A DNA stretch of 64,000 nt, from contig DASSAD010000073.1 of the NCBI GenBank assembly GCA_035685725.1, positions 1,654 through 65,653 on the forward strand. The letters run 5' to 3'. The notes beneath the pieces were generated by a model that had not been told where the DNA came from, ran no database searches, and saw only the letters and a list, made by a program, of their open reading frames with translations. Origin of the DNA: Amycolatopsis sp. (lineage in GTDB: Bacteria; Actinomycetota; Actinomycetes; Mycobacteriales; Pseudonocardiaceae). Both the position numbers and the translations under genes were made by a program. Shown piece by piece: positions 31,501 through 39,332 of the stretch; the first letter of the stretch is position 1, and the number at the start of each line of letters is the position of its first letter.

Positions 31501-32565
31501 CGGTTGTCGGATCTGGTGTCGGAGGTCAACCGAGCCGTCCTGCGATTGACGAAGGAAACGGGGGATGCCGAGAATCATCTCCCCACCAACGTCGACGTCG
31601 TCCGCATTTATCGAGGACTGGACGGCTGGAAGAAGAGGGGCACCCCTCGCGACATCGGCGAAAGGATCGCCGAGATCCACCTCACCGGCTCGGAATTCAA
31701 ACTGCACGGCGGTGTCGACTACCGGCTTATTCACAGAAAAGACCGAAAAAATATCGTCGAAAGCAATCCGAACGAACTCCTGTGGCATTTTTCCAACACA
31801 AATGACCCGCGGCACATTCTCAAGTATGGATTCACTCCGCGAGGAGACGTCGAAAATGCACCGAGGTTATGGAAGATGCAGATCTTCAAAAACGAACCCG
31901 GCGCGTTCATCTCCACCACGCGGAATCGAGACCTGTGGGATGAACATGACGCCTACGCTGCGCGACGATACCGATTCGAGATACACTCGATTCGGAATAA
32001 TGACCCTATTGGCGTGGATATGGACGCGACCAACCCTCGGGCCTTCGCCCTGGCCTTCTCCGAGGACGAGGTGGCGTTCACCGGCGGTATCGACCCAGCG
32101 GCCGTCATCAGTGTTTACGACCGCAAAAGGGACAGGACGGGATACTGGAACCAGCAAAGGGACGACGTCGACTGGATACCAGGAGATCAACAGAACCTCA
32201 GCGTCGAGATCCGGGCGACACCGGCGGCTTCGACATCAGGCCCACCTGTCCATCACCAAGTGATTCCTGGTTATGGCGCGAACGCCCATCCCGGCACGTC
32301 CTCGCATGCTACGCACGCTTATCCCCAGGTCGGAGTTCAGCCGTGGGGTCCCCCAAGTGGACCGTCCGCCGTGTACCCCGTCCCCCATGCTGGACAACGG
32401 CCCTGGGGGATTTCCGGCGCGCCGTTCCCCGGGTATGGCTCTCCCTACGGGTATCATCCGCCGGGCGGTGCCCCCGGGCCGCATTCTCCGTACCTCCCGC
32501 CGAGCTCCACTTCCGACGGAAACGACAACAAGAAAAAATCGTGGAAATTCTGGAAGAAAAAGTGA
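28546..32565 (+). CDS. T7SS polymorphic toxin: WXG100-like N-terminus, linker, LHGG module, scabin/pierisin-like ADP-ribosyltransferase
   Basis: GTG start (VSIELPAGL) chosen by paralogy; LWHFS..GF, FISTTR, GVDMDAT, EDEVAFTGGI; ends KKKSWKFWKKK. Confidence 0.88.
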   Translation: MSIELPAGLAGMFSLLSGQKWPEGDEDKLYAMGEGLIGIGRQFSDVSGRFNAASGHVLANIGGAPANEFYNFSAQLQGSLPTMSETSVELGTMSRNMGSQVEYAKYMIIAQLVWLSYEIAQWLVFLPEAVPLFVEAADLAVAAILRRLLAAAAAGGVSMSLMDLAIQGLQKLKGDRSGIDWASTLGSFEAGAVAGAVGGAVFTFGSKAVGAVAKSALSDSSVVKKIIDSVDDPQQLETVVSGLSTASKAGLGAASTVEKTGLGVVNGVATSGAMSAAFGGPDETGLSAAAGAAGMLTGERRGTSHETDSTDSEPPPVVDLSQLDNAAAALTTPDPVTDPLGVTGTGGGPGETTGTADTPSDSSTATETNAPAAALTTETGALPTGIRGGTGTQTTHGGAPVEERDGVPAQRSAGAADGRTAPAATAAPITENPKGSGGGTTTDGGGVTTVGHAGAGGTSDTGGVVTPEGAAGARDVPPEVVTEPSAGAAIGQAPGTAVAGGVRGEPSTVGGGLADPAAGGPGVHSASVETTPTTGQSARMQTESSGPAPTMTGQSRAGHPASAGVTAESGTGANPAAASGGVPGRPEVETGSAGAGVSRPVTESSASVVASPDLSAGVPPVATADRGLGQAGPVEPVATGESRAGLPDLDPLVSDQPAPGHTDIGHESTAHQSTADPSAGQQQPAPRTRLATKTSAGGAPAMTEANDTRGTHATGDTRDAAGEVAPPQPTTPGRTEATGGPVNDESGDNAVRRTVVESSGPDLLTKPLARLTPTESGPDTGHVPASRDPAPTDPPRPGPTESRGPRPGARASAADPARESDPPRTADPTGEGAASAFARPSPDYGRASIRDTETGQPEDVGTTTGSGTDRVTHRDDRPLDDVVMRDPVPIRTAGTASQRSPDSEMGPRPNRHAAEHPANADTGLKPLSPEKTPSTIESANLEPRVATVSGPAPHPAAPSHARDLSGDHARSDDASRRLDPQPTRMRLSDLVSEVNRAVLRLTKETGDAENHLPTNVDVVRIYRGLDGWKKRGTPRDIGERIAEIHLTGSEFKLHGGVDYRLIHRKDRKNIVESNPNELLWHFSNTNDPRHILKYGFTPRGDVENAPRLWKMQIFKNEPGAFISTTRNRDLWDEHDAYAARRYRFEIHSIRNNDPIGVDMDATNPRAFALAFSEDEVAFTGGIDPAAVISVYDRKRDRTGYWNQQRDDVDWIPGDQQNLSVEIRATPAASTSGPPVHHQVIPGYGANAHPGTSSHATHAYPQVGVQPWGPPSGPSAVYPVPHAGQRPWGISGAPFPGYGSPYGYHPPGGAPGPHSPYLPPSSTSDGNDNKKKSWKFWKKK

Positions 32566-32910
32566 CAGTGGCCATGCCGTGGAACCCGCCGGTGAAACAG
32601 ACGATGCCGCTGTGACCTGTGGCACGATGGGCGACCTTCGGCCTGCCGATGCCCGGCCGCCCGTGTATCAGCACGTACCGCACCACTGGTGCTCCTGGAC
32701 GATCTCCCTGGCGTGATGCAGGCAGGCCCGTGCCTCGTCGACGTCGCGCCCACGCGCGAGCATAGCTCGGCGATCGTGGGGCGGGCCTGCGCACCGTGCT
32801 CGCGGACATCACCATTCGGGTGTTCTCCCCGAGATGTCCGTCTGTCTGCGGTGGGCGGCCGGCGGCCATCGGCGTTTACGGTGGACCGGGATACCATTCG
32901 GCTGGTGACG

Positions 32911-38000: not shown

Positions 38001-39332
38001 CAGAACCAGGCCACGGCGAACGAGTTGCCGCACTCCGAGGCGACGCCTCACCAGCACGCCGCAGATCACTCAGACAACGCCGACCTTCACCCGAAACCGC
38101 TTTCTCAGGAAAACGGGCCGTCCGCGATCGAGTCCGCGAGCGGCGCGGAAGCACACGTCCCCGACGCCTTGCACGCGACGCCCCACACCGCCGGGCCGTC
38201 CGAGGTTCAGGATCTTTCCGGCGGTCGCGCGCGATCTGCCGGCATGTCCCGGCCACGCGGCCTACAGCCGAACAGAATTCCTCTGTCGGAGCTTGCGTCG
38301 GATGTCGGCCGCGAAGTGGTGAGACTGACGGAGGACACCGGAGATGCCAGGCGTTATCTACCCACCAATCTGGACATTGTGCGCATTTATCGCGGACTGA
38401 CCGAATTACAGAAGAGAGGCAGCTCCGCCGACATCGGAAAAAGGATCGCCCAGATTCACCTCACCGGCTCGGAAGTCAGGGTCCGAGGCGGCGTCAACTA
38501 CGGTCTCGTCCACCGACAGGACAGGAAAAACATTGTCGAAAGCAGCCCACACGAGGTCCTATGGCATTTCTCGGACTTGAACCCGAGATGGATTTTGCGA
38601 AATGGGTTTGTCGCACGAAATATCAACACCGTGCACACCATACGCGAAATGCAGGTCTACAACATTCCTGGCACACTCATCTCCACCACGCGGAGCCGGG
38701 ATCGATGGTTCCGTAATCGACGGTATCGGTTCGAGATAGCGGCGAGCCGGAACCACGACCCTGTTGGTGTCGATGTGGACGCGACACTGGGTTCGATCAG
38801 CGGGGAAGCGGAGGTGGCGTTTACCGGCCGGATCGATCCAGCGGCCGTCATCAGTGTCTATGACCACGAACGCGACCGGACAGGGTACTGGAATCCGGGC
38901 AACAACGACATCGATTGGATTCACGGAGATCGGCAGTACGGGCGCTTCGGTTCCAGGCCATCGGCACCGGTGGCCTCGACATCGCACGCGCCTTTCCATC
39001 CCCAAGGTCAGGGCGCGAACGCCTACCCAGGCACTCCGCCATACATTGGGGCCACTCCCCCGCATATCGCACACGGTTCTCCTTATGGCGGATTTCAGCC
39101 GTGGGGATCTCCCAGCGCACCGTCGGTTGCCCATCCCCTTCCCCATGGCGGACACCAGCCGTGGGGTCACCCGAGCCCACCGTCCCTCGCCTACCCGCCT
39201 CCCCACGGCGGACACCAGCCGACCGCCAGCTTCCCTGAATTAGGGTCATATTCTCCGTACATACCACCGGGTTACGCCGCCGGTGGACATGACAAGAAGA
39301 AAAAATGGTGGAAATTCTGGAAAAATAAGTGA
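35031..39332 (+). CDS. T7SS polymorphic toxin, paralog 2: WXG100-like N-terminus, VRGG module, scabin/pierisin-like ADP-ribosyltransferase
   Basis: MSIELPGG..WPEGDED; LWHFS..GF, LISTTR, GVDVDAT, EAEVAFTGRI; ends KKKKWWKFWKNK. Confidence 0.9.
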   Translation: MSIELPGGLAEMLSLLSGQKWPEGDEDKLYAMGDGLIGVGRQFSDVPGNFDAATGHVLANVGGAPASEFSSFSTQLQGSLPTMSQSAVELGTMSRNMAAQVEYAKYMIIAQLAWLSYEIAQWIVFLPEAVPMFIEAAELAVAAILRRLLFAAAAGAVSMSGMDLAIQGIQKLKGDRSGINWASTLGSFEAGALGGALGGATFTLGSKAIGAVARSALSDSSVVKKIISSASDPVGAQGVFSGLSAADRAGLAAASTSEKVGLGMVNGVATSGGMSAAFGGPDDAGLSAAAGAAGMLTGERRGTGGEADPTGAEPPPEVDLSGVDGAAAALTTPRPVTDSLGAAETGGGAGETTGTTDTLADPATTTETSAPGAAPATESGGLTDFPTTLIDGTRAPVGATAAGTTAAGTRGGAGTRTGSGGGAESSGGVVAGNAAPAGTGTAATNGVRSSAAAATAVGGGRGGVVTESAGTLASPGAGTPASGHSAAGESANIGAAGISATGMHEVAAQPVDTGQVGPSGTAGAPGTHTGPPDTTQAASTPTESADPVPSVTGLSRADAPAAAAANGAARTEMGPGGTGVSRPVAESPTPIAESVTSSTATPSLAADRGLASAGPVERDPQTTASTGAPLDRGRPPAATAADDDTGTPGAQAAGTPGGRGSRTSDPAAPVVTDGWRPGPPGLDTHLIDQPAHHTGTSTTDTRGPNAAGAVPDAAGRVPEAPSAGPGSAGQTARPVDDTAGDRGTARTTMEVTGPDPATESGPETQRAPAPRDPSPTDPPRPGPTESTGPRPWTPGFAVDRISALDTAATPSDLDNPSSHDISSGPPAPADNTDAASTRETDHPTREGIGSEPPAHPITSGGGATRDDSDPTTTPRHPSRSPAGPVLKESLNGHGIRAGDNGRVGVNQRTLPPRTADPIDDPAASGLSRPLPDHGQPSLRHTETGASDDTTASTGSGTDSATRHDDRLVDDGVARKPTPMRIPSTVSRQPEQNQATANELPHSEATPHQHAADHSDNADLHPKPLSQENGPSAIESASGAEAHVPDALHATPHTAGPSEVQDLSGGRARSAGMSRPRGLQPNRIPLSELASDVGREVVRLTEDTGDARRYLPTNLDIVRIYRGLTELQKRGSSADIGKRIAQIHLTGSEVRVRGGVNYGLVHRQDRKNIVESSPHEVLWHFSDLNPRWILRNGFVARNINTVHTIREMQVYNIPGTLISTTRSRDRWFRNRRYRFEIAASRNHDPVGVDVDATLGSISGEAEVAFTGRIDPAAVISVYDHERDRTGYWNPGNNDIDWIHGDRQYGRFGSRPSAPVASTSHAPFHPQGQGANAYPGTPPYIGATPPHIAHGSPYGGFQPWGSPSAPSVAHPLPHGGHQPWGHPSPPSLAYPPPHGGHQPTASFPELGSYSPYIPPGYAAGGHDKKKKWWKFWKNK
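39081..39222 (+). repeat. 60-bp tandem repeat (~2.3 copies) encoding P(H/Y)GG(H/F)QPWG units
   Basis: Units start at 39081, 39141 and 39201. Confidence 0.85.

What the first reader, a model, noticed from the sequence alone, without database searches (positions are those of the whole stretch)
31714..38935. Scabin/pierisin-like ADP-ribosyltransferases with a hybrid H-S-E catalytic signature
Seen: both domains (31714-~32190 and 38493-~38935) follow the scabin pattern LYR..GF / STS / GxDVxxT / QxEVAFPGGI. Both read LWHFS (His for the beta-1 Arg), ISTT, and E-x-E (EDE, EAE) instead of Q-x-E. Established: ARTs split into R-S-E and H-Y-E classes; scabin and pierisin use QxE to modify guanine, while ExE is typical of Arg-specific enzymes. 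Inference: the His is kept in two diverged copies, so it is probably selected, which suggests a new subfamily with a different target or NADase activity.
Basis: partly seen in the sequence, partly recalled or inferred. Interest (0 to 1): 0.7.

Follow-up and report, generated by a model that had tools for sequence, protein, structure and literature searches.

The report
Secreted toxins with histidine-swapped NAD site
Two large genes of a soil actinobacterium encode proteins that are likely exported by type VII secretion and carry a toxin-type enzyme domain in which a normally fixed arginine is replaced by histidine, a swap that recurs in related proteins and likely leaves a working protein-modifying enzyme, though activity and target are untested.

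Summary
Observation confirmed. Both domains read W-H-F-S, S-T-T and E-x-E. They match Pfam Scabin-like, and the copy 1 model superposes on scabin (pLDDT 92.8, Z 15.2). By profile alignment the His sits at scabin Arg77. Each domain lies near the end of a 1339 or 1433 aa WXG100_2 protein close to an ESX locus; the genome holds five His copies with dN/dS below 1.

His does not define a subfamily. It occurs in 22 of 218 scabin-like domains (Arg 189), its single origin is rejected (AU p 0.0008), and it appears only where the R-x-D Asp is lost (0 of 87 with Asp). The parent family is a Cys-free E-x-E branch found in giant Streptomyces multi-toxin proteins, a class noted in 2012.

Best reading: a likely active, arginine-modifying effector (0.5). 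Rivals are a weak or dead enzyme (0.22), an NADase or new acceptor (0.2), and guanine modification (0.05). No shared immunity gene was found. I found no described His-Ser-Glu variant in the searches run. Verdict: new variant of a known kind; no activity was measured.

The parts
28546..32565 (+). Gene 1, 1339 aa (GTG start inferred): WXG100_2 carrier, low-complexity stalk, helical module, ART domain, basic-aromatic tail
   Evidence: same length as database protein P0003
28597..28953 (+). WXG100_2 (PF25547) domain of gene 1
   Evidence: 55 bits against cut-off 27
31495..31713 (+). About 73 aa module (predicted helical by eye) ending in L-H-G-G directly before the ART domain; found only in the five own copies
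31714..32187 (+). Scabin/MTX-fold ART domain, copy 1: His 31786-31788, Arg at the scabin Lys94 position 31840-31842, Ser 31912-31914, E-D-E 32062-32070
32530..32562 (+). C-terminal Lys/Trp-rich tail (KKKSWKFWKKK), possible membrane-targeting signal (inferred)
35031..39332 (+). Gene 2, 1433 aa, same architecture as gene 1
35079..35441 (+). WXG100_2 (PF25547) domain of gene 2
   Evidence: 63.8 bits
38274..38492 (+). Pre-ART module of gene 2 ending in V-R-G-G
38493..38933 (+). ART domain, copy 2: His 38565-38567, Arg at the scabin Lys94 position 38616-38618, Ser 38682-38684, E-A-E 38805-38813
39294..39329 (+). C-terminal Lys/Trp-rich tail of gene 2 (KKKKWWKFWKNK)
39283..41600 (+). Downstream of gene 2: an EspC/WXG100-like ORF (weak, below Pfam cut-off) and a 454 aa WXG100_2 protein with no toxin domain found
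6914..20260 (-). ESX (type VII) locus: beta-helix plus AAA ATPase (EccA-like, my label), EccB 13241-14584, EccD 14597-16126, EccC-type FtsK ATPase 16139-20260; the likely export machine

Best explanation
The two genes encode WXG100_2-led proteins, likely exported by the neighbouring type VII secretion system, whose scabin-fold domain carries His in place of the usual NAD-binding Arg and likely still transfers ADP-ribose to an arginine of a protein in a target cell. Shown: architecture, fold (as a confident model), motif positions, five paralogues under purifying selection, repeated origin of the His, and its restriction to domains that lost the R-x-D Asp. Inferred: export by ESX; NAD binding through a H-x-S first motif like that of the H-Y-E class, with an Arg at the scabin Lys94 position supplying charge; arginine as acceptor (from E-x-E); and a target the producer lacks, perhaps eukaryotic and near a membrane (no shared immunity gene, basic-aromatic tail; about 0.55 within this reading).
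For: Model pLDDT 92.8. Scabin Z 15.2, rmsd 2.6 over 134 residues; TreX Z 12.6 (2.4, 115); pierisin 12.4 (2.9, 144); MTX 11.4 (3.0, 143). E-x-E marks arginine-modifying ARTs, including the scabin-fold proteins MTX and TreX (PMC7827354, PMC11606950, PMC8120803). In 20 His domains the catalytic Glu is kept in 19 and the first Glu in 19, against 98 and 92 of 101 Arg domains. His, Ser+2, Ser, both Glu and three Arg (plus a fourth also conserved in Arg relatives) are invariant in 9 of 9 members of the His group around the window. The scabin Asn110 equivalent is kept in 5 of 5. Among 29 non-Arg domains, 22 have His and none has Cys, Gln, Trp, Ser, Gly or Pro. dN/dS 0.22-0.68. ESX genes lie 8 kb upstream.
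Against: No assay exists. The aromatic ARTT-loop residue used for substrate binding is missing in 5 of 5 own copies, against 44 of 101 Arg domains that have it. None of the five has Arg at the scabin Arg81 position. His domains match the family's conserved columns a little less well (range 0.70-0.96, mostly 0.80-0.89, n=14) than Arg domains (median 0.91, n=68), though the columns were defined on the Arg set. The link between His and the Lys94-position Arg is not significant on independent pairs (3 starred pairs, median p 1), nor is the link to loss of Asp (5 starred pairs, median p 0.5). Asp loss also admits Lys, Leu, Thr and Ala, which fits plain relaxation. Expression and secretion are untested.
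Confidence: 0.5

Rival explanations
1. The His domains are weakened or inactive enzymes: loss of the Asp relaxed the site, and the domains are kept for binding or structure, or are slowly decaying.
For: Non-Arg residues occur only after Asp loss and include Leu, Thr and Ala in visibly degenerate domains. The ARTT aromatic is missing in 5 of 5. No shared immunity gene. Two relic copies lie in the genome. dN/dS of the ART (0.22-0.68) exceeds that of the carrier (0.11-0.30). Scabin Arg77 is called key for NAD binding (PMC7828395).
Against: Ser, both Glu, His and the pocket Arg are invariant across nine diverged His domains. His dominates the substitutions (22 of 29). The genome expanded the His form to five copies.
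Confidence: 0.22
2. The His shifts the chemistry: the domains are mainly NAD glycohydrolases, or modify an acceptor other than arginine.
For: ART folds are often repurposed as NADases; Tne5 has Lys at its pocket and hydrolyses NAD (PMC13285283). The ARTT loops of the five copies vary widely and lack the aromatic residue. His domains are less acidic (median charge -3 against -11.5).
Against: The first Glu of E-x-E, needed for transfer rather than hydrolysis in TreX, is kept in 19 of 20 His domains. A cytoplasmic NADase would be expected to need an immunity partner, and none is shared. His also arises in a separate Q-x-E lineage, so it does not track one acceptor.
Confidence: 0.2
3. The domains modify guanine in DNA or nucleotides like scabin, ScARP and pierisin.
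For: The best structural and profile matches are scabin and ScARP. The Asn110 equivalent is kept.
Against: The guanine-reading Gln158 and the stacking Trp155 (PMC7828395, PMC7827354) are absent in both window copies and in 5 of 5 paralogues. NCBIfam ADPrt_Strmyces scores 22 bits against a cut-off of 250.
Confidence: 0.05

Closest known systems
Scabin / ScARP (Streptomyces guanine ARTs; PDB 5ewk, 5zj4)
   Same: Fold (Z 15.2 and 14.5), STT motif, GxDVxxT, Asn110 equivalent, final Glu
   Different: Scabin is a small single-domain protein with R-S-D, Trp155 and Q-x-E. The window's domains have H-F-S, no ARTT aromatic, E-x-E, no Cys, and sit in 1300-1400 aa WXG100_2 proteins.
Mosquitocidal toxin MTX (Lysinibacillus sphaericus; PDB 2cb4, 2vsa)
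   Same: Best single-sequence PDB hit for copy 1 (E 1.5e-4); same E-D-E motif; modifies arginine of proteins (EF-Tu in E. coli)
   Different: MTX has Arg97 and ricin-B delivery domains; the window's proteins have His and a type VII carrier.
TreX (Xenorhabdus T6SS Rhs toxin; PDB 8s2m, 9gco)
   Same: Scabin-fold, Cys-free, E-x-E polymorphic toxin domain (Z 12.6)
   Different: TreX has R-S-E, a cognate immunity protein and needs thioredoxin. No immunity gene was found here, and thioredoxin dependence was not tested.
Pierisin/MTX-like ART domains of giant actinobacterial WXG toxins (Tox-ART-RSE; PMC3482391)
   Same: Nearest relatives are internal, often tandem domains of Streptomyces proteins up to about 20,000 codons, with WXG100_2, EndoU, Gln deamidase, glycosyltransferase or PARP domains
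   Different: The passages read describe them as R-S-E with R-x-D-x-R. Here the first motif is [R/H]-F-S, and the window's proteins carry one ART with a special pre-ART module and tail.
H-Y-E class ARTs (diphtheria toxin, PARP)
   Same: First motif H-x-[ST] (PMC7955679): 21 of 22 His domains have Ser or Thr at +2
   Different: The second motif is STT, not Tyr, and the fold matches are all of the cholera-toxin class. The likeness is convergent, in one motif only.

Membership tests
Pfam Scabin-like (PF22596) | Score above the gathering cut-off | tested here: met
   47.1 and 38.2 bits against 27
Cholera-toxin-class (R-S-E) ART | Split beta-sheet ART core | tested here: met
   Copy 1 model pLDDT 92.8; Z 15.2 to scabin, 9.8 to cholera toxin A1. 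Copy 2 was not folded.
Cholera-toxin-class (R-S-E) ART | Arg on strand 1 | tested here: not met
   His in both copies and in 5 of 5 paralogues
Cholera-toxin-class (R-S-E) ART | Ser on strand 2 and Glu on strand 5 | tested here: met
   ISTT and E-x-E
Cholera-toxin-class (R-S-E) ART | ADP-ribose transfer from NAD | not testable with these tools
   Needs an assay
Scabin/pierisin guanine-specific ARTs | Q-x-E and ARTT Trp | tested here: not met
   E-x-E; no aromatic at the ARTT third position in 5 of 5; NF041482 22 bits against 250
Arginine-specific ARTs (MTX, TreX, iota type) | E-x-E motif | tested here: met
   E-D-E and E-A-E
Arginine-specific ARTs (MTX, TreX, iota type) | Modification of arginine | not testable with these tools
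   Needs an assay
H-Y-E class ART | His on strand 1 in H-x-[ST] | tested here: met
   H-F-S
H-Y-E class ART | Tyr on strand 2 | tested here: not met
   Ser-Thr-Thr at that place
Type VII polymorphic toxin (WXG carrier) | N-terminal WXG100-like domain and linked ESX genes | tested here: met
   PF25547 in both genes; EccB, EccD and EccC in the window
Type VII polymorphic toxin (WXG carrier) | Same carrier with different C-terminal domains | tested here: met
   A carrier 80% identical over 189 aa leads a 2698 aa protein with a SecA-like domain and DxxR/YxDxD glycosyltransferase motifs
Type VII polymorphic toxin (WXG carrier) | Adjacent immunity gene | tested here: inconclusive
   No shared DNA or common ORF in 1.2 kb downstream of six copies; the TPR gene after copy 1 has no paralogue. 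A distant or copy-specific immunity gene is not excluded.
Type VII polymorphic toxin (WXG carrier) | Secretion and toxicity | not testable with these tools
   Needs experiments
   AU p 0.00076 for 22 His rows and 0.007 for the 19 E-x-E His rows, on a 47-row subset

The most novel reading that the evidence does not exclude
These are active ADP-ribosyltransferases with a natural His-Ser-Glu triad. After the R-x-D Asp was lost, scabin-fold toxins repeatedly converged on the H-x-S NAD-binding motif of the diphtheria-toxin/PARP class, giving living intermediates between the two ART classes. In this genome the His form was expanded into single-warhead type VII effectors aimed at eukaryotic cells, released after a ubiquitin-like L-R-G-G motif and held at membranes by a Lys/Trp tail.
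Probability: 0.2. Interest if true: 0.75.

Novelty: new variant of a known kind. Interest (0 to 1): 0.46.

Why it matters
ARTs are sorted and predicted by their first catalytic residue: Arg or His. A set of natural sister domains that differ at this residue (for example an Arg copy in L043 beside His copies in L040 and L041, starred support) allows a direct test of what that residue does and of whether its neighbour two places on decides which residue is allowed. If the His domains are active, motif-based screens that require Arg miss working toxins, and the two ART classes are easier to bridge than their labels imply. The locus also adds single-domain members to a little-studied class of actinobacterial type VII effectors. 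If the domains are dead, the finding is an ordinary case of drift in a toxin arsenal.

Tried and rejected
Single-sequence fold failed (pLDDT 34) and was replaced by a 51-row alignment. Copy 2 alone found no PDB sequence match at E up to 10. Word-index homologue searches were insensitive: 3, 6 and 1 hits. The AU test on all 218 rows did not finish, so a 47-row subset was used. Covariation of His with the Lys94-position Arg (11 of 20 against 12 of 101) and with Asp loss (Fisher p 4e-6, inflated by kinship) did not reach significance on independent pairs, so both stay leads. The L-x-G-G motif is not general: at that position it occurs in 5 of 5 own copies and 1 of 72 other domains with upstream sequence, and L-x-G-G is not clearly enriched in the 13 long relatives counted. 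Promoter and terminator scans were at chance level. The ESM Atlas gave no answer. Earlier scan findings: none. Thioredoxin dependence as in TreX was considered (the domains are Cys-free), but no complex was predicted, since neighbourhood gave no partner and a pass could reflect the solved TreX complex. Literature: 'H-S-E' had 0 occurrences in the 30 listed of 54 papers. Searches for Arg-to-His ART mutants, the tail motif and L-R-G-G processing gave nothing relevant in the listings. One review tried by id is not held. Supplements were not read; those of PMC3482391 and PMC11606950 may list members of this family.
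Full report
Verdict. The His variant is real and recurrent, and I found no description of it. It is not a subfamily of its own but a repeated substitution inside a larger arginine-type family of actinobacterial type VII toxin domains. Activity is untested. Interest 0.46; new variant of a known kind.

1. The observation. Copy 1 (31714-32187) and copy 2 (38493-38933) read LWHFS, ISTT, GVD(M/V)DAT and E-D-E or E-A-E followed by VAFTG. Both pass the Pfam Scabin-like cut-off. 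A profile of 51 relatives hits scabin at E 1e-25, MTX at 3e-21, pierisin at 3e-17 and TreX at 2e-13, and aligns W-[R/H]-F-S with scabin Y-R-S-D. That Arg is Arg77 in PMC7828395 (passages). The AlphaFold2 model of copy 1 has pLDDT 92.8 with the His on the first strand. It matches scabin at Z 15.2 (rmsd 2.6, 134 aligned), TreX 12.6, pierisin 12.4 and MTX 11.4 (Foldseek agrees). I could not inspect side-chain coordinates, so the His placement rests on the profile alignment and strand position. Copy 2 was not folded; it is 57% identical to copy 1.

2. The genes. Each domain lies near the end of a large protein: 28546-32565 (1339 aa) and 35031-39332 (1433 aa). Both begin with WXG100_2, continue with a long Gly/Pro/Thr/Ala-rich stalk and a module of about 73 aa ending in [LV]-[RH]-G-G, then the ART, then a Pro/Gly/His/Tyr-rich tail ending in a Lys/Trp motif. 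The ART DNA is 54-56% GC in a 70% GC genome. EccB, EccD, an EccC-type ATPase and a beta-helix AAA ATPase lie at 6914-20260, so type VII export is likely (inference). The genome (81.5% complete, 449 contigs) holds five His-type ART copies, two of them cut at the N-terminus by contig ends, plus two relics: one beside a fragment of the carrier, one beside what looks like a transposase fragment. The same carrier also leads a 2698 aa protein that overlaps the window's end. It has a SecA-like domain and C-terminal DxxR and YxDxD motifs as listed for Tox-Glycosyltransferase in PMC3482391 (Pfam did not call this domain). One carrier with different warheads is the polymorphic toxin pattern. No DNA or ORF is shared downstream of six copies, and the TPR gene after copy 1 has no paralogue, so no immunity gene was found. 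The host family is inferred to be Pseudonocardiaceae: a Saccharopolyspora spinosa protein is 100% identical over 656 aa to a locus in a same-family genome. Close matches were not found in 24 same-genus genomes apart from one weak partial hit.

3. The family. A phmmer search of 1.84 billion representatives gave 60 hits. Keeping domains that cover at least 60% of the model gave 71 domains: Arg 56, His 13, Leu 1, Lys 1, with E-x-E in 64. Named relatives are Streptomyces proteins, with open frames up to 20,672 codons and up to seven matches per genome. They also carry EndoU, Gln deamidase, glycosyltransferase, PARP or WXG100_2 domains. At E 1e-15, 11 of 401 Streptomyces genomes matched the tight alignment. 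PMC3482391 (passages) already notes pierisin/MTX-like R-S-E domains in giant actinobacterial toxins. I widened the set with PF22596 matches: all 27 listed, and 90 of 167 (30 given as loci, 60 fetched; most of those left out were near-identical ScARP-like hits). After filtering (E 1e-5, 55% coverage, 90% identity; 315 to 218) the first residue is Arg 189, His 22, Lys 3, Leu 2, Thr 1, Ala 1. The set was seeded with His queries, so 10% is probably an overestimate.

4. How the His behaves. The five own copies form one starred clade, so they count once. His needs 9 changes on the 218-row tree built without the trait columns; starred branches force at least 3. Monophyly is rejected on a 47-row subset (22 His, 25 Arg): AU p 0.00076, and 0.007 for the 19 E-x-E His rows. 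Short domains, a quick tree and possible recombination among tandem copies limit this. One His group lies in a separate Q-x-E lineage. All 87 domains with Asp two residues after the site have Arg; all 29 non-Arg residues lie among the 131 without Asp, and 21 of 22 His domains have Ser or Thr there. This matches the published pairing [R/H]x[D/T] (PMC12522546, figure legend passage) and the H-x-[ST] motif of the H-Y-E class (PMC7955679, passages). On independent pairs the association never runs the other way but is not significant (5 starred pairs, median p 0.5). Selection: dN/dS is 0.22-0.68 for 10 of 10 ART pairs and 0.11-0.30 for the carrier (simple counting, partly saturated). In nine related His domains, His, Ser+2, Ser, both Glu and an Arg at the scabin Lys94 position are invariant (numbering; Lys94 is named as a pocket residue). 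Against full function: no ARTT aromatic in 5 of 5 (44 of 101 Arg domains and 5 of 15 other His domains have it), no Arg81 equivalent, and slightly lower conservation overall.

5. Mechanism. Most likely (0.5): ESX exports the protein through its WXG carrier, and the ART binds NAD with His and Ser in the first motif, helped by the extra Arg. It cleaves NAD with the last Glu and uses the first Glu to select an arginine, as in MTX and TreX (PMC7827354 passages; PMC11606950 passages and section 16; PMC8120803 passages). The missing immunity gene, the glycosyltransferase sibling and the basic-aromatic tail lean to a eukaryotic, membrane-near target, but that is weak inference. That such tails bind membranes, and that L-R-G-G is the end of ubiquitin, are recalled and come from no call. 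Rivals: weak or dead enzyme (0.22); NADase or another acceptor (0.2; precedent Tne5, PMC13285283 passages); guanine modification (0.05, since Gln158 and Trp155 equivalents are absent).

6. Relation to what is known. It works most like MTX or TreX and belongs to Pfam Scabin-like and to the WXG-led polymorphic toxins. It fails the strict R-S-E test (His) and the scabin test (E-x-E, no Trp), and it is not H-Y-E (no Tyr). 'H-S-E' did not occur in the 30 listed of 54 papers, where papers with all three terms would rank first. Searches showed nothing on such a variant in their listings. PMC9503650 (passages) names only the three standard clades. The library lacks most subscription papers and I read no supplements, so absence from print is not proven.

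7. Why 0.46. The fold, delivery route and parent family are known, and a single substitution may be mere tolerance. What lifts it is that the substitution recurs, favours His, depends on a neighbouring position, and comes with natural Arg/His sister pairs that make the Arg-versus-His divide in ARTs directly testable.

Noticed in passing
window 58863-63998 (-), continuing to G000:C73:68612: 2698 aa protein with the same WXG100_2 carrier, an internal SecA DEAD-like domain and a C-terminal domain with glycosyltransferase motifs (DxxR, YxDxD) that Pfam did not call.
   Followed up: partly
window 1-1620 (-), continuing to the start of contig C73: Another copy of the carrier, cut by the contig end; its last 100 residues begin a different, unidentified globular domain.
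   Followed up: partly
window 31699-31713 and 38478-38492: [LV]-[RH]-G-G directly before the ART domain in 5 of 5 copies, resembling the ubiquitin C-terminus (recalled); a possible processing site. Found at that position in 1 of 72 other domains.
   Followed up: partly
window 32530-32562 and 39294-39329; also C48, C169, C73: C-terminal KKKKWWKF-type tail in seven distinct copies and nowhere else in the genome by the pattern used; no paper found for the motif.
   Followed up: partly
G000:C278:12465-17342 (L006) and C54: An Rhs-type protein with a WXG-like N-terminus ends in an ordinary Arg, Q-x-E scabin-like domain, so the genome also has a canonical form.
   Followed up: no
L026, L031, L089: A separate His group with H-F-S and Q-x-E in large proteins of same-family genomes, sister to R-F-S Q-x-E domains of Streptomyces.
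   Followed up: partly
L025, P0062-P0064: Saccharopolyspora WXG100_2 proteins with Lys at the same position (K-A-S/T, STT, E-x-E), one starred clade.
   Followed up: no
window 10081-13251 (-): 1056 aa ESX-locus protein with no Pfam or NCBIfam hit; its C-terminal part looks by eye like a degenerate ART-type domain (impression only, untested).
   Followed up: no
window 19800-27936: Regulator cluster between the ESX genes and gene 1: a large AAA-LuxR protein, a SARP with NB-ARC domain and a LuxR protein, candidates for control of the locus.
   Followed up: no
G430:C12 (L078-L080): 17,113-codon Streptomyces open frame with WXG100_2, a glycosyltransferase and a His-type ART close to the window's clade, flanked by YbaB-like and SseB-like genes.
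   Followed up: partly
window 32689-33945 (+): TPR protein directly after gene 1, with no paralogue in the genome; an immunity or chaperone role is untested.
   Followed up: partly
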